A DNA stretch of 37,950 nucleotides from a virus, in the IMG/VR virus record IMGVR_UViG_3300032004_000033, positions 1 through 37,950 of that record. One strand, written 5' to 3'. The notes beneath the pieces are model-generated. The model was not told where the DNA came from. It searched no databases and worked only from the letters and a program-made list of their open reading frames with translations. Shown here piece by piece: positions 659-29,927 of the stretch. Position numbers and translations under genes: made by a program. Within the stretch, counting starts at the first letter, position 1; the number at the start of each line of letters is the position of its first letter.

Positions 659-1168
659 TTACTGAGCAGCCATGCACTGGCTGTGTCGCTTGAGCTGTCG
701 AGCCCAGACCCCAGCACACCGCGTGTTGCCCGGCGTGGAGCAGTCATAGCCAGCGGCAAAGCGGTACTTGAGCAGGTCGGTGCAGGCCTGGGCGTAGTTG
801 CCGGCCAGCAGGCTCTTGCGTGGTGAGCCCTTGCGCCAGGTGCCCATGCCGTACTGGCCAACGAAGTCCATGTACAGATCGAACTCGTCTTGGTAGAGCT
901 TCACGCCCGGCAGGCTGGCGGCAAACTCTTTCTCGGCCTGGCTGTTGAGGTTGCGGGCCAGAACCTCGGCACGCTGGCGAGTGATGGTGTCGCCCATCTG
1001 AACAGGCCGGCCGTCCTCGTACCGTGTCGAGCCGTGGCCGATGGTGGGCACGTCGCCCTTGGTGGGGATGACAGCGCGGTCGGTGAACCCTTCGTTGGCC
1101 TGCCATGCGCCAAAGCCTGCCAGGCTGAGGGTGAGCAGGCCGACCGCGATGCGGTTGCGGTTGCTCAT
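659..1168 (-). CDS. SAR endolysin (T4/P22-type lysozyme family, GH24-like).
   Basis: ATG at 1168 overlaps the holin stop (ATGA). The N-terminal weakly hydrophobic Gly/Ala-rich segment IAVGLLTLSLAGFGAW is followed by NEGF...GDVPTIGHGST, a lysozyme signature. Confidence 0.85.
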   Translation of the reverse strand: MSNRNRIAVGLLTLSLAGFGAWQANEGFTDRAVIPTKGDVPTIGHGSTRYEDGRPVQMGDTITRQRAEVLARNLNSQAEKEFAASLPGVKLYQDEFDLYMDFVGQYGMGTWRKGSPRKSLLAGNYAQACTDLLKYRFAAGYDCSTPGNTRCAGVWARQLKRHSQCMAAQ

Positions 1169-1443
1169 GGCCGGCACTGATCGCGCAGGGCCTGGATGCG
1201 GGCGGCGCTCTCGGCGTGCTCACGGCGGTCACGGCGAATTTGGAAGTACGTGTTGACCAGGAAGCCAAGCACCGCGATGGCCACACCGACAATGCCCAGC
1301 CAGTTGGCTTGGGAGAGAAACCCCAAAAGGCCAGTACCTGCGCCCGCAAGCATGCCCTTGCTGGCAACAGATGCCCCCACAGCCTCAACGATTCCCTCAG
1401 GTGCAGGGTTCGACATGTTTGTACTCCTGTCTGGGGCTTTCAT
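1165..1443 (-). CDS. Holin, two TMDs (pinholin-like), with possible dual starts at Met1 and Met10.
   Basis: GGAGG lies 8 nt upstream of ATG 1443. TMDs are GMLAGAGTGLLGFL and WLGIVGVAIAVLGFLVNTYF, with a charged C-terminus RRDRREH. It is the first gene of the lysis cassette. Confidence 0.8.
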   Translation of the reverse strand: MKAPDRSTNMSNPAPEGIVEAVGASVASKGMLAGAGTGLLGFLSQANWLGIVGVAIAVLGFLVNTYFQIRRDRREHAESAARIQALRDQCRP

Positions 1444-7287: not shown

Positions 7288-7847
7288 ACATTGATTGGAG
7301 CAAGGCGCCGAAAGGGGCGACGCATAAATTCAGCGATCCAACTACAAACCCTTGGCGTGATCTCTCGGGGGAAACCTGGAAGTACTGGTCGGAAGGCGAG
7401 TGGATAGACAGCGAGCTGCGCACCGATACCTTCATGAAGCGGCAGGCGCACCGCCTTACCGTAGTTGAGCCGATCGGATGGACCGGCGAAGGCCTGCCGC
7501 CTGTTGGGGCGGTGTGCGAAGTCGTCTCGCCCGGCTACAGCAATGACAGGTTCGACCGATTCATCGGCCAGACGGTAACAGTCATCGCCCACGATGTGAT
7601 CGACGCAGATCCTGTTGCTGTGTTCCGGATGCCTGTTGATGGCCAGATCGACGAGCAGGATTATCACGCGCTGGTCAAGCAGTGCTTCCGTCCCATCCGC
7701 ACGCCCGAGCAGATCGCGGCGGAAGAGCGCACCAAGACTATAGATGACATGGTCAAAGCGCTTGGCATTGATTCCCCAGGAACGGCCGATTACATCCGTT
7801 GCGGGCTGATTTACGACGCCGGATACCGCAAGCAGGTGGCGCCATGA
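7284..7847 (+). CDS. Hypothetical 187-aa protein.
   Basis: Long ORF in operon register, with ATGA coupling at both ends. Confidence 0.65.
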   Translation: MNIDWSKAPKGATHKFSDPTTNPWRDLSGETWKYWSEGEWIDSELRTDTFMKRQAHRLTVVEPIGWTGEGLPPVGAVCEVVSPGYSNDRFDRFIGQTVTVIAHDVIDADPVAVFRMPVDGQIDEQDYHALVKQCFRPIRTPEQIAAEERTKTIDDMVKALGIDSPGTADYIRCGLIYDAGYRKQVAP

Positions 7848-15832: not shown

Positions 15833-16069
15833 ATGCAAACCGCACGCAACGACGAGCCGGTCGAATTCATCCGGCTGCCCGAGGTAAAGAAACTGGTCGG
15901 CTTCGGCACCACCAAGATTTACGAAATGGCGAGCCAAGGCCTGTTCCCCAAGCAGGTTCCGCTGGGCGGGCGCTCCGTGGCCTGGGTCAAGTCCGAGGTT
16001 CTGCAATGGAACAGCGAGAAGCTGGCCGCTGCCCGTGGTCAGGCTTCGGACACCAGCGAATCCAAGTAA
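15833..16069 (+). CDS. xis: AlpA-family excisionase/DNA-binding protein.
   Basis: FIRLPEVKKLVGFGTTKIYEMASQGLFPKQVPLGGRSVAWVKSEV is the AlpA signature. The gene is convergent with, and overlaps, the int 3' end. Confidence 0.85.
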   Translation: MQTARNDEPVEFIRLPEVKKLVGFGTTKIYEMASQGLFPKQVPLGGRSVAWVKSEVLQWNSEKLAAARGQASDTSESK

Positions 16070-17268
16070 TCGGCCCATTCCTGCATCATCACCCGCCGCT
16101 GTTCCACGTACTCCGCGTGGTTGTAGGTCTTTCTGACCTTGCTTGAACCCGCATGCGAAAGCTGCGCCTCGATCCAATCCTCGTTGTAATCCATTTCGTT
16201 CAGGGCCGTTGAAATCGTGGCACGGATCCCGTGCCCGGTCAGCCTGCCTTCATACCCCATGCGCCTCAAAGCCACGTTGACTGTGCCGTCGCTGATTGGC
16301 TTGCTCGGGTCACTCCGACCCGCGATCAGCAGCTTGTAACGGCCAGTCATCTGGTGCACCTTGCGCACCTCCTCGACCGCCTGCCGCGACAGTGGCACCA
16401 GATACGGCGGCACCTTATCCCCTCCCTTTGCCCTAATCACCTTCTGCAATTGCTTCACCCCCTCTGCGGGGATCGTCCACAGCGCGGCGTCCAGGTCAAA
16501 CTGGGCCCACGTTGCGTGGCGTAACTCGCCCGTGCGAACCGCCGTCAGCAACAGAAGCCGGATCGCGCTTTTGGTGTAGTCCTTGATGTCGGCCGCATCA
16601 AGCGCCTGCAAGAACTCTTTGAGCTCACGCTGACGAAGCATCGGGTTGTGTTTCTCGGGCGGCTCTTTAACTGCCACGATATCCAGGTCGGCCGCCGGGT
16701 TGACCTCCAGATAGTCAGAGGCAATGGCGAAACGGAATATCTCGTTGAGCCAGGTCCGGCACTTGCGGGCAACGTTGAGCGCCCCGCGCTTCTCTATGGT
16801 TCGCAACGTCGCCAGTACATCGGCGCGCTTGACCTCGGCAATCGGGATACGTCCCAGCGCCGGCACCAGATCTTTGTCCAGGTAGAGCTGCGCCTGAACA
16901 GCGGCGCCCTTCTTGGCCTTCGCCCACCGGGGCAGCTTGAAGGCATACCACTCATTAGCCACCACCTCGAACGTTTTGATGGCGCTGGAGCTCGCCGCCC
17001 GCTTCTCTTCCCGACGGGTGGACCGTGGGTCTGTGCCCTTGGCCACCAGCGCCCGCGCCTGGTCCCGCTTCTCACGGGCTTCCTTGAGGCTGATTTCTGG
17101 ATAGGTGCCCAAGGACATGCGCGGCTGCTTGCCGTGCCAGGAGAAACGGAAGTGCCACGACTTGGTGCCGTTGGTCGTGACGAACAGGGATAGGCCCCCG
17201 CCATCGGTGATGGAGTATTCCTTGTCAGCGGGCTTGGCCTGCCGGACAGCCGTATCAGTGAGGGGCAT
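16039..17268 (-). CDS. int: Tyrosine integrase (P4-type, DUF4102 N-terminus).
   Basis: MPLTDTAVRQAKPADKEYSITDGGGLSL...WHFRF...GTYPEISLKEAREKR, then C-terminal HGIRATISTALNEM...HAGSSKVRKTYNHAEY. Confidence 0.95.
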   Translation of the reverse strand: MPLTDTAVRQAKPADKEYSITDGGGLSLFVTTNGTKSWHFRFSWHGKQPRMSLGTYPEISLKEAREKRDQARALVAKGTDPRSTRREEKRAASSSAIKTFEVVANEWYAFKLPRWAKAKKGAAVQAQLYLDKDLVPALGRIPIAEVKRADVLATLRTIEKRGALNVARKCRTWLNEIFRFAIASDYLEVNPAADLDIVAVKEPPEKHNPMLRQRELKEFLQALDAADIKDYTKSAIRLLLLTAVRTGELRHATWAQFDLDAALWTIPAEGVKQLQKVIRAKGGDKVPPYLVPLSRQAVEEVRKVHQMTGRYKLLIAGRSDPSKPISDGTVNVALRRMGYEGRLTGHGIRATISTALNEMDYNEDWIEAQLSHAGSSKVRKTYNHAEYVEQRRVMMQEWADYLDSLVSEA

Positions 17269-17327
17269 TAGTACATCACCACGTCAGTCGAACTGGGGAA
17301 GTGCTGAATGATGTACTAAAAATGCGC

Positions 17328-17416
17328 GGAACGCAGCGAAAGAATGCGAAACTCCACGCAACAAAAAGGCCGCGCTTAGCGGCCTATTGCTTGGGGTTTG
17401 CGGAACTCTGCGAAAC
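17328..17416. repeat. attP arm-type direct repeats (candidate integrase arm sites).
   Basis: GCGGAACGCAGCGAAAG (17328-17344) and GCGGAACTCTGCGAAAC (17400-17416), plus TGCGAAAC at 17344-17351 and 17408-17415. Confidence 0.45.
17362..17383 (-). terminator. Rho-independent terminator between the attP core and int.
   Basis: Minus strand reads GGCCGC-TAAGC-GCGGCC followed by TTTTT. Confidence 0.7.
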
Positions 17417-17431
17417 CCAGTGAAACTAGAA

Positions 17432-17450
17432 ATGGTGCCCGAAGCCGGAA
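17432..17450 (-). other. attP core candidate: the 3'-terminal fragment of a tRNA gene (acceptor 3' strand plus CCA; identity not determinable).
   Basis: Minus strand reads TTCCGGCTTCGGGCACCA, i.e. part of the T-arm, acceptor strand TTCGGGC, discriminator A and CCA. It lies next to int. Confidence 0.55.
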
Positions 17451-17550
17451 CCTAATTCGGCGCAAAACTCCCAATGCTCATTAGGCAAATACAAAGACAG
17501 GCCGAAACGATGTGCTAACCACTGTACTGTTTCTTCGCCGCTGGGCTCGA

Positions 17551-18411
17551 TCAGATCGCAGACAACACGAATGCCAGTAGCTGTTCATAGCGAACCCCTG
17601 GACCCTGCGCCGTCTTCTCGACGATTGAGTAGTCATCCGCATTCAGGCCTTGCGCGGCGAACGCCGAACGGATGTCAGCAACTGGGATGCCCACACCGAT
17701 TTTGCCGGTGGTCTTGCTGCGCGAAGCCTTGATCATGCCCTTGAGCTGCTTGGCTACAGAGCGCTCCGCTTCGGAAAGGTCGCGTGGTGCATCGGCCTGG
17801 GCCGGGTTGTCCAGCAGCACAGGCCCGCTACCCACGCCAAACAGCATGTCAGAGCGGTGATAGCTGGGGGCTACTCCCGATGAATACAGCCCGTAGCCGC
17901 TGGACTGGGACATCGCAAGCGCGGTGTTGGTCTTGCCCGAGGCAAGGTTGCGAATGAAGATGCCCACGTTTTTATCAACCGTGCCACCGCCGGTGACGGA
18001 TACATCAGCGATATCGACTGCGGTCCGTATCAGGATCTCGCCTGTGCCGGAGTGCACCGGGCGTGATAAGAAGCCGCCGGTTGACGCCAGTACATTGCTG
18101 CCGGCGTAGTTGATGCGGTCCTGGAATGAATAGATATGGTTTTGCCGATTAGCCCCGCGCAGCTCAACCACGGAATCAAACGCGCCATAGGTGCCAGCGT
18201 CCGTGACCTTATCCATGATGGTCTTGTCAGTGAAGGCGTGGGCGTCGGTGCCGCCATGCATTGAGCGCGACACAACCACACCATCGTTGAGGGAGTGACC
18301 GGTCACAGGGTTGTTGCCAACGAGCACGCGAGGGGCCGTGATGGGCTCATCGCCCCAGGCCGACACAGAGGCGGCAAGGGCGATGGCAAGGGTGAAAGCA
18401 ATCTTTTTCAC
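17551..18411 (-). CDS. Signal-peptide-bearing paralog of the tailspike head domain (secreted/periplasmic), the last gene before attP.
   Basis: GTG start. Sec signal MKKIAFTLAIALAASVSA/WG. The centre is homologous to the tailspike (VTDAGTYGAFD...NQNH.Y.FQ.R...RPVH.G.G). At DNA level, 18176-18207 vs 19409-19440 match at 29/32. Confidence 0.7.
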   Translation of the reverse strand: MKKIAFTLAIALAASVSAWGDEPITAPRVLVGNNPVTGHSLNDGVVVSRSMHGGTDAHAFTDKTIMDKVTDAGTYGAFDSVVELRGANRQNHIYSFQDRINYAGSNVLASTGGFLSRPVHSGTGEILIRTAVDIADVSVTGGGTVDKNVGIFIRNLASGKTNTALAMSQSSGYGLYSSGVAPSYHRSDMLFGVGSGPVLLDNPAQADAPRDLSEAERSVAKQLKGMIKASRSKTTGKIGVGIPVADIRSAFAAQGLNADDYSIVEKTAQGPGVRYEQLLAFVLSAI

Positions 18412-18456
18412 GACAGGTCCCGCGTTCGTTTGAGATTGCCCATGATACGTGGCGGG

Positions 18457-19740
18457 TTACTTGGCTTCCAGCGCTGCAAGGCGGGCCTCGAAGCCGGCAG
18501 CTATAAAGGCATACAGCCCGCTTTCACGGAAGCTGTAGCGGTCGCCTGCTGGAGCCTCTGGAGTTTCGTCCCACTTGTCGTAGCAGATGAAGCTGTAGGC
18601 GAATGGGTCCAGGCCGTGCGCCTCCATCACCTCAATGGCTCGCTGAACCGTCATGCCGATGTGTTCGCGTGCCGAATCTCCCTTTTCCGCCATTGCCGAG
18701 AGGAACTTGAAGGCCCCGATCTCTTTGGCCAGGGCGGACGCTGCTGCAATCTCGGCGGCGGACAGTTGGCGAACTTCCGTTTTCTCGCGAGCATCCGAGG
18801 TGCTGATAGTGGCGGTGCCGGCCCAGACCACCGACCACCGTTGCGCCGCGTCGCCCAAAGTCTGAGAGTTATCCGCCCCAGGCGCCACGGTGTAACCGTT
18901 GGACGCTGCCTTGATCTGCAAGCGGGTGGCAGAGTTGGCAATAAACTGGACGATCGTATCGCTCTCCGCGCCGATCTGGAGGTTCGTGGCGGTAGTTTCA
19001 ATAAAGCCGCGACGTGCGCCAACGGCAGTGCCAGCAAATTGCGCGGCATAAGAGGCAGTCGGAGATATTCCAAATCCTGCGCGCCCTTTGTTGTACATCG
19101 TGCCGCCGCCGGCAGCGTAATACGCAATGCCCGCAACCTGGTCGATGCTGAGGCCTACGTTTACCGTTGCGCCTGTTTGGTCGCGAATTCGAACGCCGGT
19201 TTGTTGGGTCATGGTACCGGCGCCGGTGATCGACATCGACCCAATATCAGCGCCATAGCTTTCATTGATGACGCCAGCACCTGCATGGACAGGGCGAGTA
19301 AGCAGGCCCGCAAACTGACCTAGGATGCCAGAGCCTTGAAAGATCATTCGATGCTGAAAGGCGTACATATGATTCTGGTTTGCTGACCCTTGAAGCCGCG
19401 TAGTTGTGTCAAACGCGCCATAAGTGCCCGCGTCGGTGACACCGCTAATTTCGGTTCGAGCCGCAAAGTCATGGAAATCTGTTGGCCCGGTAACATTTCG
19501 ACCTGAAATGTAACCGTCCCGAGTTGTTGGCGCTGAAATCTCTTCAGTACCCACGATGATTGAGGCAACTCGGACTCGCTTACTTGCATCAATGCTGACC
19601 TTTCCTGCCTTGGCGGCATTGAAGTCAGCGTCAGTGTCGAAGTTAATTCGATCAACAATGGTCAAGTTATCGACGAGGCTGCCCACGTCTTTATTTTTGC
19701 CATCAAGGTTTTGGATGTTGTCAGCGCGCAAAGTGCTCAT
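18457..19740 (-). CDS. Tailspike/tail fibre with a C-terminal intramolecular chaperone (peptidase S74-like) domain.
   Basis: ATGA coupling to the upstream gene. C-terminal ...TATISTSDAREKTEV...IGAFKF...REHIGMTVQ... is typical of auto-cleaving chaperone domains. Confidence 0.75.
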   Translation of the reverse strand: MSTLRADNIQNLDGKNKDVGSLVDNLTIVDRINFDTDADFNAAKAGKVSIDASKRVRVASIIVGTEEISAPTTRDGYISGRNVTGPTDFHDFAARTEISGVTDAGTYGAFDTTTRLQGSANQNHMYAFQHRMIFQGSGILGQFAGLLTRPVHAGAGVINESYGADIGSMSITGAGTMTQQTGVRIRDQTGATVNVGLSIDQVAGIAYYAAGGGTMYNKGRAGFGISPTASYAAQFAGTAVGARRGFIETTATNLQIGAESDTIVQFIANSATRLQIKAASNGYTVAPGADNSQTLGDAAQRWSVVWAGTATISTSDAREKTEVRQLSAAEIAAASALAKEIGAFKFLSAMAEKGDSAREHIGMTVQRAIEVMEAHGLDPFAYSFICYDKWDETPEAPAGDRYSFRESGLYAFIAAGFEARLAALEAK

Positions 19741-20459
19741 GGGTGCAGTTCTCCGTCAGCAATTGTATAGAAGGACCCAAGGCCAACAGTCACTGACTGC
19801 CCAACGGCGACGGTCATAGTTGGCCCAAAAGACCAGGCATTTTTGTTTGGCGGAATAACCACACTGTTTTGAATGGTCTGGTTATGCCAGGAAATTTCTG
19901 AGAAGGCCGAAGCCTGGACAGGATTGCTGCCGCTAATTTGGGATTGAAGGTAGGCGTCTGCGTTTTGCCTTGCGGCTGCTTCAATTGCGTCTTGATCCAG
20001 AACATATTGCTTATTTGCTGCATCGTTGTTTTCAACTGGATAGGCAAGATCGCGTATCCCATTGTTATTTGCCCTGTACCATCCAGCACCATCAATATCA
20101 AAAGAGCCTAGTGTCAAAGCCCTGGTGGTATATCGAAAGAGCTGCTTTAGCGCCTGCCAGATCCGGTCGAAGTCACGGTTAACGGTCGAGGAAAGGAAGT
20201 CGCCGTTTTCCTGGTAGTCCGTCAGCCGCTGGAACGGCACGTCCAATACCAAGTACAGGTCGCCAGTAGGCGCTACGGAAAAAATCACTGAGCTGGTGGG
20301 CTGCCCTATGCCAGTTTGGGTATACCCGGATGCTTGCAGAACGCCATCGAGGTAGACCTTGAGATCGCCGGCCTCGATCACCAGGAACGGCACGGTATAG
20401 ATAGTGGTGACGCCGTTGGCGGCATAGCGCTTTTCGGTTGGCCCTGGCTGGACAGACAT
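19737..20459 (-). CDS. Tail fibre/adaptor protein with a T7 gp17-like N-terminal particle-attachment domain.
   Basis: YAANGVTTIYTVPFLVIEAGDLKVYLDGVLQ...LTDYQENGDFLSSTVNRDFDRIW matches the T7 tail-fibre N-terminal pattern. Confidence 0.7.
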   Translation of the reverse strand: MSVQPGPTEKRYAANGVTTIYTVPFLVIEAGDLKVYLDGVLQASGYTQTGIGQPTSSVIFSVAPTGDLYLVLDVPFQRLTDYQENGDFLSSTVNRDFDRIWQALKQLFRYTTRALTLGSFDIDGAGWYRANNNGIRDLAYPVENNDAANKQYVLDQDAIEAAARQNADAYLQSQISGSNPVQASAFSEISWHNQTIQNSVVIPPNKNAWSFGPTMTVAVGQSVTVGLGSFYTIADGELHP

Positions 20460-29483: not shown

Positions 29484-29927
29484 TTAGATCTCCATCATCA
29501 AGAGGGGCCCGATGTTGCGCAGGCCCTGGGATTCATAAAGACGGGTCGTTCCTTCGACGTTGACGCCGGTTCCGATACCCATGTGGATTTGCTTGGCACC
29601 CTTGATCTTTGCCCACTCTTGGAAGGTTTTAATCAGGCGGATGGCAATCACCCCATTACGCTTGGAGGGCTCGACGAACAGCGAGTAGTCATAGGCGATC
29701 AGGTCATTGCTGAACCATTGATCAGTTACGCCGCCAGCCATGCCGCCAACCACTTCGCCGCCAACCTCGGCAACGAAAACAACCCCCGCGCCGTTGATGA
29801 GGTCGTGGAGGAAGTTGGCCGATTTCTCTGGGCAGTAGTTCATCGAGGCGTAGTTGCTGGTCGCATGAAGGATGTTTCCCAGCTCGATCAGCCTGGGTAC
29901 GTCGGAATGTTTGGCGGGCCGAATCAT
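29484..29927 (-). CDS. GNAT-family N-acetyltransferase embedded in the virion module.
   Basis: VVFVAEVGGEVVGGMAG...YDYSLFVEPSKRNGVIAIRLIKTFQEWAKIKGAKQIHMG is a GNAT core. Hand counts of 100-nt samples gave about 51% GC at 29581-29680 against about 67% at 30301-30400. Confidence 0.75.
   Translation of the reverse strand: MIRPAKHSDVPRLIELGNILHATSNYASMNYCPEKSANFLHDLINGAGVVFVAEVGGEVVGGMAGGVTDQWFSNDLIAYDYSLFVEPSKRNGVIAIRLIKTFQEWAKIKGAKQIHMGIGTGVNVEGTTRLYESQGLRNIGPLLMMEI

What the first reader, a model, noticed from the sequence alone, without database searches (positions are those of the whole stretch)
17551..18411. Secreted paralog of the tailspike receptor-binding domain next to attP
The last late-strand gene encodes a protein with a classical Sec signal (MKKIAFTLAIALAASVSA/WG) in place of a virion-attachment domain. 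After the signal comes a region clearly paralogous to the central domain of the adjacent tailspike. Examples are VTDAGTYGAFD, which is identical in both, NRQNHIYSFQDR against ANQNHMYAFQHR, and SRPVHSGTGE against TRPVHAGAGV. At the DNA level, 18176-18207 matches 19409-19440 at 29 of 32 positions. A degenerate remnant of the C-terminal chaperone region follows, without the SDxxxK cleavage motif.

The gene is separated from the tailspike by a 45-nt gap, whereas the upstream genes overlap. It starts with GTG. A possible own promoter is present (TGGAAG-17-TATCAT, 18477-18449 on the minus strand).

A periplasmic or secreted copy of a receptor-binding or depolymerase domain could have three roles:
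- Mask or modify the receptor in lysogens (superinfection exclusion or seroconversion).
- Act as a free depolymerase released at lysis.
- Serve as an alternative host-range cassette.

I am not aware of a described system of this kind.
Basis: partly seen in the sequence, partly recalled or inferred. Interest (0 to 1): 0.75.

Follow-up and report, generated by a model that had tools for sequence, protein, structure and literature searches.

The report
Exported tail-fibre paralog gene cassette
A temperate Pseudomonas phage carries, just after its tail-fibre gene, an old and well-conserved copy of the fibre's body domain that has lost its virion anchor and gained a secretion signal, so it is sent into the cell envelope, most likely to act on the phage receptor from inside, though this is not shown.

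Summary
ORF 17551-18411(-) encodes 286 aa. It has a Sec-type signal peptide, a roughly 170-aa domain paralogous to residues 43-225 of the adjacent S74 tail fibre (36% identity, E 2e-38), and a confidently folded intramolecular-chaperone (IMC) domain that lacks the Ser-Lys cleavage dyad.

It is not a recent or decaying copy. It belongs to a monophyletic family (bootstrap 177/200) under purifying selection (dN/dS 0.07). In all 18 aligned members the signal peptide is kept and the dyad lysine is absent. All 18 lack cysteine in the shared domain, whereas 36 of 44 fibres have some. One subclade adds a C-terminal membrane anchor with a basic tail, which places the fold in the periplasm.

The gene always sits directly 3' of the tail-fibre module in podo-, sipho- and myovirus contexts. 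Once it occurs without the paralogous fibre. It is preceded by a conserved -10-like box (10 of 10 loci) and usually followed by a terminator, so it looks like a moron cassette. AT3 O-acetyltransferase genes occupy the same slot elsewhere.

The link is to the fibre module, not to attP. Function is inferred: envelope or receptor-directed exclusion or masking (about 0.4). A homolog in Pseudomonas poae isolates is annotated only as "tail fiber domain-containing protein".

The parts
17551..18411 (-). sec-type gene: 286-aa exported tail-fibre paralog (GTG start, TGA stop)
   Evidence: ORF. 19 homologs at 43-94% identity. dN/dS 0.072 against L026. No hit in Pfam, NCBIfam or PADLOC.
18358..18411 (-). 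Signal peptide, aa 1-18 (MKK-IAFTLAIALAA-SVSA|WG)
   Evidence: Basic n-region, hydrophobic core with Kyte-Doolittle score (KD) 2.6, AxA-type site. The same layout is found in all 18 full-length family members despite sequence divergence and is absent from the fibres. SignalP was not available.
17833..18336 (-). Fibre-body domain, aa about 26-193, paralogous to fibre aa about 58-225
   Evidence: BLASTP E 2e-38. Invariant H58, D79, H92, Q97 and R99 are shared with 44 fibres. No cysteine in 18/18 sec-type proteins, against 1-3 in 36/44 fibres. Mostly beta strands, pLDDT 57-75. No PDB or Pfam match.
17554..17799 (-). Non-cleaving intramolecular-chaperone (S74-like) domain, aa about 205-286
   Evidence: pLDDT about 90-98. 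Profile search against PDB chain sequences: 6eu4 E 1.5e-4, 4uw8, 3gud. Foldseek: 4uw8, 3gud, 3gw6, 7dc3. Catalytic Ser and Lys replaced.
18442..18448 (-). Conserved -10-like box G-TATCAT, 30 nt upstream of the GTG
   Evidence: G + TATCAT, TATAAT, TATATT or TATGAT lies 22-36 nt before the sec start in 10/10 loci. GTATHWT occurs only twice in the whole window on both strands. The simple sigma-70 scan found no full promoter, and -35 is not conserved.
18412..18456 (-). 45-nt spacer between fibre stop and sec start; no terminator inside
   Evidence: Identical in L026.
17357..17385 (-). Intrinsic terminator (AGGCCGC-TAAGC-GCGGCCT + TTTTTGTT) ending the late transcription unit
   Evidence: Equivalent GC hairpin plus T-run immediately after the sec gene in L001, L002, L005, L007, L029, L030 and L031.
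18457..19740 (-). Tail fibre or spike, 427 aa: N-terminal attachment segment (aa 1-42), body domain (43-225), stalk (about 230-314), cleavable S74 IMC (S315...K320, to 427)
   Evidence: Pfam PF13884 6e-9 at residues 315-377. PHROG tail-fibre families. tblastn against the phage collection matches mainly the C-terminal half, residues 230-427.
19737..20459 (-). 240-aa adaptor with T7 gp17 N-terminal-like domain that carries the fibre
   Evidence: PHROG 1640, 28871 and 18671; weak PF03906.
17269..17550 (.). Intergenic region between sec and integrase; presumed attP (inferred, not mapped)
   Evidence: Integrase at 16039..17268(-). Its cluster at 90% identity or more is found in genomes of Pseudomonas fluorescens-group species and P. 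corrugata. No tRNA detected.

Best explanation
Shown:
- The gene encodes a non-virion paralog of the tail-fibre body domain that is exported by the Sec pathway.
- It arose once by an ancient duplication of an S74-type fibre gene.
- It was then remodelled: the N-terminal virion-attachment segment was replaced by a cleavable signal peptide, the stalk was deleted, the IMC lost its autoproteolytic Ser-Lys dyad but kept its fold, and all cysteines of the body domain were removed.
- It travels as a small cassette (-10-like box, ORF, terminator) that inserts immediately 3' of the tail-fibre module of unrelated temperate phages.

Inferred:
- The protein is secreted unfolded and trimerises in the periplasm, with the permanently attached IMC acting as nucleus.
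- It is either soluble or, in one subclade, tethered to the inner membrane.
- It uses the conserved ligand-binding or catalytic surface inherited from the fibre to bind, trim or otherwise alter an envelope component. The most likely target is the surface polysaccharide or LPS receptor while it is being assembled at the periplasmic face.
- The consequence would be masking or modification of the receptor. That would exclude superinfecting phages from the lysogen and, because the gene is also the last gene of the late operon, keep progeny from being trapped on debris. This would be an Llp-, Cor- or oac-like role carried out by a re-targeted copy of the fibre itself.
For: Export and periplasmic residence:
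- Signal peptide conserved in all 18 aligned full-length members while its sequence drifts.
- No cysteine in 18/18 sec-type proteins, against 1-3 in 36/44 fibres. This includes the TDCH-to-TDAH/TDNH change next to the invariant His.
- P0010-12 and P0020 add a C-terminal TM segment (KD about 3) followed by a Lys/Arg-rich tail, i.e. N-out, C-in topology.

Not a virion part:
- The protein lacks the conserved MSTLRADN... attachment segment of the fibres.

Functional and old:
- dN/dS 0.072.
- Monophyletic, bootstrap 177/200.
- Third codon positions saturated against the fibre.
- Residues invariant in fibres are retained.

IMC fold kept, protease lost.

Cassette and position:
- Always directly after the fibre module: window, L001, L002/3, L005/8/9, L026, L029, L030, L031, L033.
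- In L007 it follows an unrelated fibre plus Tfa in a myovirus.
- -10 box in 10/10 loci, and a terminator after the gene in 8 of them.
- The 90%-identity block shared with L026 ends exactly at the sec stop codon.

Accessory, not an assembly factor: at least 12 loci have the fibre but no sec gene.

Slot used for glycan-modifying morons: AT3 and AT3-SGNH acyltransferase genes follow the fibre in L006 and the sec gene in L030.
Against: - No experiment and no expression data exist.
- The -35 region is not conserved, and the simple sigma-70 scan calls no promoter. The gene may therefore be expressed only as a late gene.
- The shared domain has no recognisable fold or enzyme signature. It is a module that also occurs twice per chain in long fibrous proteins, so it may be structural rather than receptor-binding.
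- A periplasmic protein cannot reach the outer face of an outer-membrane receptor.
- In L007 the phage's own fibre is unrelated, so sec is not tied to the specificity of the neighbouring fibre.
- Intragenomic sec and fibre pairs show no co-evolution.
- Trimerisation is inferred only.
Confidence: 0.4

Rival explanations
1. Purely late-phase helper. The protein is made with the late operon and exported before lysis. It is released as a free receptor-binding or receptor-destroying trimer that clears or masks receptor on the lysing cell and its neighbours, so progeny escape. It has no role in the lysogen.
For: It is the last gene of the late transcription unit, with no terminator between fibre and sec. 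In L002, L005, L007, L029 and L031 it lies between the tail genes and the lysis genes. No convincing -35 element.
Against: The conserved -10 box and the terminator that isolates the gene from downstream lysis genes suggest autonomous expression. The membrane-anchored subclade would not be released as a free protein. No depolymerase signature.
Confidence: 0.2
2. Exclusion at the injection stage. The periplasmic trimer intercepts the tail tip or ejected proteins of incoming phages, or blocks an inner-membrane entry factor, in the manner of T4 Sp/Imm, HK97 gp15 or TP-J34 Ltp. It does not touch the receptor.
For: Periplasmic or inner-membrane-anchored location. The gene works with different fibre types (L007). 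Moron-like cassette.
Against: There is no reason why a fibre body domain, with its fibre-invariant residues kept, should recognise ejection proteins. The carrier phages have three different tail architectures with unrelated ejection machinery.
Confidence: 0.1
3. Lysogenic-conversion factor unrelated to phage exclusion. This could be a periplasmic or further-secreted lectin or adhesin, or a matrix- or LPS-remodelling protein that benefits the host.
For: Moron architecture. The same domain occurs in long signal-peptide-bearing fibrous proteins that look like bacterial surface proteins (P0131, P0134, P0147).
Against: The strict linkage to the tail-fibre module in every locus argues for a phage-related role. 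No outer-membrane or secretion-system signal beyond Sec is visible.
Confidence: 0.1
4. Second virion fibre or alternative host-range cassette whose hydrophobic N-terminus is not a signal peptide.
For: Homology to the fibre. NCBI annotates the P. poae homolog as 'tail fiber domain-containing protein'.
Against: No attachment segment. Canonical n-, h- and c-regions with AxA sites in all members. Cysteine purge. C-terminal TM variants. Uncleaved IMC.
Confidence: 0.03
5. Decaying duplicate of the fibre gene with no function.
For: Loss of the stalk and of the catalytic dyad.
Against: dN/dS 0.07. Intact ORF in about 20 clusters spread over three tail morphotypes. More conserved than the fibres: mean identity 0.60 against 0.46.
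Confidence: 0.01

Closest known systems
T5 Llp and phi80/N15/T1 Cor (receptor-blocking exclusion proteins encoded next to the RBP or tail-fibre genes)
   Same: A signal-peptide-bearing, envelope-targeted, non-virion protein encoded adjacent to the receptor-binding module. Llp acts from the periplasmic side on the receptor and also protects progeny (established knowledge; PMC9586334 listed). Same genomic logic.
   Different: Llp and Cor are small lipoproteins unrelated in sequence to the RBP. Here the protein is 277-356 aa, has an SPase-I type signal and no lipobox, and is a paralog of the fibre itself with an IMC domain. No PHROG link to Llp or Cor families.
Peptidase_S74 intramolecular-chaperone tail fibres and spikes (K1F endosialidase, T5 pb1, phi29 gp12) and eukaryotic MyRF
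   Same: C-terminal IMC fold. Common ancestry with the neighbouring S74 fibre.
   Different: The Ser-Lys dyad is absent, so no self-cleavage is expected. The stalk that the IMC normally templates is deleted. The protein is exported rather than assembled on a virion. The window protein does not reach the Pfam threshold.
Seroconversion morons between tailspike and attP/int (P22 gtrABC, Sf6 oac, OafA-type AT3 acyltransferases)
   Same: Same slot, 3' of the fibre or spike and near int. Envelope-directed. AT3 genes occupy this slot in L006 and sit beside sec in L030.
   Different: Those are integral inner-membrane transferases with known chemistry. The sec-type protein is a soluble or single-pass periplasmic beta-rich protein with no enzyme signature.
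Lambda-type morons (lom, bor)
   Same: A promoter-like element, a single ORF for an exported protein and a terminator, inserted in the late region next to the tail-fibre genes.
   Different: Promoter activity is not shown here, and composition is not atypical: GC3 is 0.71 against 0.74-0.82 for other phage genes.
Vibrio phage K139 Glo (periplasmic exclusion protein)
   Same: A prophage-encoded periplasmic protein implicated in exclusion (from memory, not checked here).
   Different: No fibre homology. Different genomic position.

Membership tests
Peptidase_S74 / intramolecular chaperone domain | IMC fold at the C-terminus | tested here: met
   pLDDT about 90-98 for the last 80 aa or so. Foldseek probability 1.0 to 4uw8 and 3gud. 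Profile against PDB chain sequences E 1.5e-4.
Peptidase_S74 / intramolecular chaperone domain | Catalytic Ser-Lys dyad (S-D-x-x-x-K) for autoproteolytic release | tested here: not met
   Ser in 1/18 and Lys in 0/18 sec-type proteins, against 44/44 and 44/44 fibres. The window has D...A at these positions.
Peptidase_S74 / intramolecular chaperone domain | Pfam PF13884 gathering score | tested here: not met
   No Pfam hit for the window protein at E up to 1. Among sec-type members only P0013 carries a precomputed PF13884 hit; the other hit, P0018, is a fibre.
Virion tail fibre / tailspike | N-terminal segment that docks on the adaptor or baseplate | tested here: not met
   The alignment with the fibre starts at fibre residue 43. 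Residues 1-42 (MSTLRADN...), conserved in podovirus-type fibres, are replaced by a signal peptide.
Virion tail fibre / tailspike | Presence in the virion | not testable with these tools
   Needs virion mass spectrometry.
Sec (SPase I) secreted or periplasmic protein | Basic n-region, 7-15 residue hydrophobic core, small residues at -1 and -3 | tested here: met
   MKK / IAFTLAIALAA / SVSA|W. The same organisation is found in all 18 full-length members. By sequence rules only; SignalP was not available.
Sec (SPase I) secreted or periplasmic protein | Actual export and cleavage | not testable with these tools
   Needs PhoA/BlaM fusions, fractionation and N-terminal sequencing. Indirect support comes from the cysteine purge and the C-terminal TM variants.
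Lipoprotein exclusion proteins (Llp/Cor type) | Lipobox with +1 Cys | tested here: not met
   No Cys in the window signal peptide. Only P0017 has an LSSC-like string.
Moron (autonomous transcription unit in a prophage) | Own promoter | tested here: inconclusive
   A -10-like box is conserved in 10/10 loci. There is no conserved -35, and the consensus scan is negative. No transcript data.
Moron (autonomous transcription unit in a prophage) | Own terminator directly downstream | tested here: met
   GC hairpin plus T-run after sec in the window (166 nt downstream) and immediately after it in 7 other loci.
Superinfection exclusion / receptor-masking system | Reduced adsorption or EOP when expressed | not testable with these tools
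   Experiment needed. PADLOC gives no hit.

The most novel reading that the evidence does not exclude
Temperate phages have repeatedly mobilised a dedicated 'inside-out' copy of their own fibre body. It is a Sec-exported, self-trimerising (dead-IMC) module that binds or trims the receptor glycan in the periplasm before the glycan reaches the surface. That would be a previously unrecognised class of superinfection-exclusion or receptor-masking protein derived directly from a receptor-binding protein, and portable between podo-, sipho- and myoviruses.
Probability: 0.3. Interest if true: 0.8.

Novelty: new variant of a known kind. Interest (0 to 1): 0.62.

Why it matters
If the inferred role is right, this would show phages recycling their own host-recognition hardware as an exported defence or masking device. 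It would be a simple evolutionary route from RBP to exclusion factor.

It would also be the first case, as far as these searches show, of an S74 intramolecular chaperone kept as a permanent, non-cleaving folding module in an exported bacterial-compartment protein.

There are practical consequences too. Genome annotation currently labels these genes "tail fiber domain-containing protein". That inflates RBP counts and could mislead host-range prediction. The cassette might also explain resistance of some Pseudomonas lysogens to related phages.

The family is small (four clusters at 50% identity out of 1.84 billion representatives) but experimentally tractable, because one member sits in a prophage of cultured P. 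poae isolates.

Tried and rejected
Searches that gave nothing for the sec protein or its region:
- Pfam, NCBIfam, PADLOC and PHROGs scans: nothing useful.
- tblastn against 50,697 phage records: no match for the sec protein. The body domain of an enterobacterial fibre matched only one Bradyrhizobium phage at 28%.
- PDB sequence and fold searches: only the IMC domain matched. The body domain stayed unassigned. Long BFVD alignments to 'pectate lyase superfamily' spikes had poor TM scores (0.29-0.34), and I do not rely on them.
- Rfam on 17200-18700: nothing.
- tRNA scan of the window: nothing, so attP was not mapped.
- Five literature searches found no description of a signal-peptide-bearing fibre paralog. 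Two candidate papers were opened and were irrelevant.

Technical dead ends:
- The first AlphaFold run with 20 sequences was too poor (pLDDT 57). A 62-sequence alignment improved it only to 73.
- The consensus sigma-70 scan found no promoter.
- The Biopython bootstrap timed out and was replaced by my own NJ code.

Ideas rejected:
- Recent in-genome duplication or gene conversion. Third codon positions are saturated and there is no intragenomic excess similarity except a mild one in L002.
- Tail-fibre assembly chaperone. The Sec signal argues against it, and fibres occur without it.
- Holin or other lysis protein, considered because the gene precedes endolysins in several loci. In the window the holin and SAR-endolysin genes lie at 659..1443(-), far from sec. 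A terminator separates sec from the lysis genes elsewhere.
- Alternative host-range cassette.
Full report
**1. The observation**

ORF 17551..18411 on the minus strand encodes 286 aa from a GTG, the first possible start after an in-frame stop. It lies 45 nt downstream of a 427-aa gene (18457..19740-). That gene overlaps by 4 nt a 240-aa gene (19737..20459-).

The 427-aa protein is an S74-type tail fibre or spike. Pfam Peptidase_S74 matches residues 315-377, and many PHROG tail-fibre families match. The 240-aa protein has the T7 gp17 N-terminal-like adaptor domain.

BLASTP of the 286-aa protein against the fibre gives 66/183 identities without gaps, E 2e-38. Sec residues 11-193 align with fibre residues 43-225. 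The quoted peptides and the 29/32 DNA patch are real. However, nucleotide identity over the 549-nt homologous stretch is 44% and third codon positions agree at 26%, which is chance. The duplication is therefore ancient.

TGGAAG is at 18470-18465 and TATCAT at 18447-18442.

**2. The setting**

The window is essentially a complete genome of about 38 kb of a temperate podovirus. Its elements are:
- T7-like structural genes on the minus strand: portal, scaffold or protease, capsid, tail tube A and B, and internal virion proteins.
- Terminase.
- A CI-like repressor, RecET-like recombination genes and a methyltransferase on the plus strand.
- Holin and SAR-endolysin genes at 659..1443(-).
- A tyrosine integrase at 16039..17268(-).

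The integrase's cluster at 90% identity or more contains proteins from Pseudomonas mandelii, P. fluorescens, P. corrugata and P. neuropathica genomes. The host is therefore inferred to be a P. fluorescens-group or closely related pseudomonad.

The sec gene is the last gene of the late strand. An intrinsic terminator follows at 17385-17367.

**3. A conserved family, not an accident**

A search of 5.8 billion proteins found 19 relatives at 43-94% identity. An exhaustive HMMER search of 1.84 billion cluster representatives showed two things. The body domain is common in tail fibres, with about 100 clusters at E < 1e-30 in which the domain is almost always internal to proteins of 400-800 aa. The short architecture of signal peptide, body domain and IMC-like domain accounts for only four clusters at 50% identity (P0009, P0011, P0020, P0021).

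Sec-type proteins form a clade in a neighbour-joining tree of the body domain (bootstrap 177/200). Mean identity is 0.60 within the clade, 0.46 among fibres and 0.41 between the two groups.

Between the window and a related contig (L026), the sec gene has dN/dS of 0.072.

**4. Hallmarks of the derived state**

a) Every full-length member has a basic n-region, a hydrophobic core of 10-14 residues (KD 1.9-3.2) and an AxA-type site (SVSA|W, SLPA|F, FGANA|D, CGAHA|E and others). The sequence itself is not conserved. The fibres have nothing comparable.

b) The fibre's N-terminal segment is missing. In podovirus-type fibres this segment is the conserved MSTLRADN...; in siphovirus-type fibres it is a different, longer one.

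c) The stalk of about 85 aa between the body domain and the IMC is deleted.

d) The IMC fold is retained. pLDDT is about 90-98, and there are matches to T5 pb1 (4uw8), phi29 gp12 (3gud), endoNF (3gw6) and MyRF (7dc3). The catalytic Ser is present in 1/18 sec-type proteins and 44/44 fibres. The Lys is present in 0/18 and 44/44. The domain therefore cannot cleave itself off.

e) The body domain of all 18 sec-type proteins has no cysteine, whereas 36/44 fibres have one to three. In 31/44 fibres a Cys sits next to the invariant His (TDCH). Sec-type proteins have TDAH or TDNH at that position. This is what one expects for a protein moved to the oxidising periplasm.

f) P0010-12 and P0020 carry an extra C-terminal hydrophobic segment (KD about 3) followed by a Lys/Arg-rich amphipathic tail. 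This is the topology of a single-pass protein with its bulk in the periplasm.

g) Residues invariant across fibres and sec-type proteins (H58, D79, H92, Q97, R99 and several Gly) are kept. Whatever the domain does in fibres is probably still done.

**5. Genomic context**

The gene is linked to the tail-fibre module, not to attP. It lies directly 3' of an S74 fibre in the following settings:
- Podovirus contigs in which it is followed by small ORFs and an integrase (L001), by lysozyme and Rz (L002/3), by unknown ORFs (L026), or by a tRNA-type attP and an integrase (L033).
- Siphovirus contigs in which it is followed by endolysins of two different families (L005/8/9, L029).
- A siphovirus-like prophage of Pseudomonas poae isolates (L031).

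In L007 it follows an unrelated 386-aa fibre and its Tfa chaperone in a P2-like myovirus, ahead of endolysin, Rz and Rz1. So it does not need the paralogous fibre.

Conversely, at least a dozen loci encode fibres with this body domain and no sec gene. So it is not an assembly factor.

Sec proteins are not especially similar to the fibre of their own genome.

Between the window and L026, a block of 90% nucleotide identity covers the last 100 nt or so of the fibre, the spacer and the sec gene. It ends exactly at the sec stop codon, and the rest of the genomes are dissimilar. This is a mosaic module.

**6. Cassette signals**

In 10 of 10 loci a box of G followed by TATCAT, TATAAT, TATATT or TATGAT lies 22-36 nt upstream of the likely start codon, within otherwise divergent spacers. 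The degenerate 7-mer GTATHWT occurs only twice in both strands of the whole window. All versions satisfy TAnnnT.

No -35 element is conserved, and the simple consensus scan calls no promoter. Promoter function is therefore plausible but unproven. No Rfam family matches the region.

A strong GC hairpin with a T-run follows the gene immediately in L001, L002, L005, L007, L029, L030 and L031, and 166 nt downstream in the window. The layout of promoter-like box, single ORF and terminator is the classical moron layout. Because there is no terminator upstream, the gene is also read with the late operon.

**7. What the slot is used for elsewhere**

In L030 the sec gene is followed by a divergent 644-aa AT3-SGNH acyltransferase. 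In the Franconibacter prophage L006 a 390-aa AT3 acyltransferase follows the fibre directly.

AT3 (Oac/OafA-type) enzymes are the standard O-antigen-acetylating seroconversion genes of temperate phages and sit between tailspike and int in Sf6- and P22-like phages (established knowledge). Receptor-blocking proteins such as T5 Llp and phi80 or N15 Cor are likewise encoded next to the RBP or fibre genes (established knowledge; PMC9586334 listed).

**8. Interpretation**

Shown:
- An exported, non-virion, selectively maintained paralog of the fibre body domain with a permanently attached IMC.
- It is carried on a mobile cassette at the 3' end of tail-fibre modules.

Inferred:
- It trimerises in the periplasm.
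- It uses the inherited surface to bind or alter an envelope component. The most likely target is the surface polysaccharide or LPS while it is assembled at the periplasmic face of the inner membrane, which would fit the membrane-anchored variants.
- The result would be receptor masking or modification, and so exclusion. It might also protect progeny at lysis.

I put this at about 0.4.

The main weaknesses:
- The body domain has no recognisable fold or catalytic signature.
- It occurs as a repeated bead in long fibrous proteins, so it might be structural.
- There are no expression data.
- There is no coupling to the specificity of the neighbouring fibre.

The rivals are a purely late release helper (0.2), injection-stage exclusion (0.1), a host-benefit lectin or adhesin (0.1), a virion component (0.03) and a decaying duplicate (0.01).

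**9. Comparison with the known**

It works most like Llp/Cor- or oac/gtr-type modules next to the RBP gene, but it is not a member of any of those families. It has no lipobox, no homology to them and no transferase domain.

It is a structural relative of S74 proteins but fails the defining catalytic dyad and the Pfam threshold.

NCBI and UniProt label the P. poae homolog (WP_105696476.1 / A0A2S9EUJ0) as "tail fiber domain-containing protein", "Peptidase S74 domain-containing protein" or "hypothetical protein".

Five full-text literature searches found no description of such a protein.

**10. Verdict**

This is a real, conserved and previously undescribed family. I class it as a new variant of a known kind, namely envelope-directed accessory genes next to RBP genes, made from the fibre itself. 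Its function is still to be tested. Interest 0.62.

Noticed in passing
L001 18330-20702 (contig Ga0247820_10000087): A related podovirus contig that also carries a sec-type gene holds an apparent diversity-generating retroelement: reverse transcriptase (RVT_1, 384 aa), bAvd accessory protein (118 aa) and a 201-aa neighbour with a faint Lcl_C hit.
   Followed up: no
L030 5735-7669 (-) and L006 7722-8894 (+): AT3 (Acyl_transf_3, in L030 fused to SGNH) acyltransferase genes, the type used for O-antigen acetylation, sit immediately after the fibre or sec genes in two unrelated prophage contexts.
   Followed up: partly
P0131, P0134, P0147, P0159: The fibre body domain also occurs, once or twice per chain, in 714-1123-aa proteins with N-terminal signal peptides of a type I associate from memory with Bacteroidota (organism not determined). 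The module is therefore also used in long secreted fibrous proteins outside the Pseudomonas phages.
   Followed up: partly
window 17461-17472 (-) and L033 about 7341-7352: A shared string, GGGAGTTTTGCG, lies downstream of the sec gene in the presumed attP regions of the window and of L033, although the integrases differ. In the window it is followed by ...GGGCACCA (17433-17440), and L033 has a clear tRNA 3' end there. It may be an att or arm-site element.
   Followed up: no
window 659-1443 (-): Lysis genes lie at the start of the late operon. They are a 92-aa two-TM holin (1165..1443) overlapping a 172-aa lysozyme with an N-terminal SAR-like segment (659..1177). No clear spanin pair was recognised next to them.
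   Followed up: partly
window 18457-20459 against the rest of the late operon: The adaptor and fibre genes have lower GC (0.52 and 0.57; GC3 0.57 and 0.61) than other phage genes (GC about 0.59-0.63, GC3 0.74-0.82). The sec gene is intermediate (0.60, GC3 0.71). This suggests the fibre module was acquired horizontally.
   Followed up: partly
L006 7339-7509, L014 7327-7551, L018 7306-7476, L022 6905-7075 (all minus strand): A conserved membrane protein of about 56 aa (MxTFAKVxHWFIRAMGxxCLLMLxTGxS...) is encoded on the opposite strand just after the fibre in several loci. L006 is from Franconibacter; the organisms of L014, L018 and L022 were not determined. It is another candidate occupant of the post-fibre slot.
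   Followed up: no
window 29484-29927 (-): A 147-aa protein matching a PHROG annotated as acetyltransferase (phrog_1249) sits inside the tail and internal-protein gene block.
   Followed up: no
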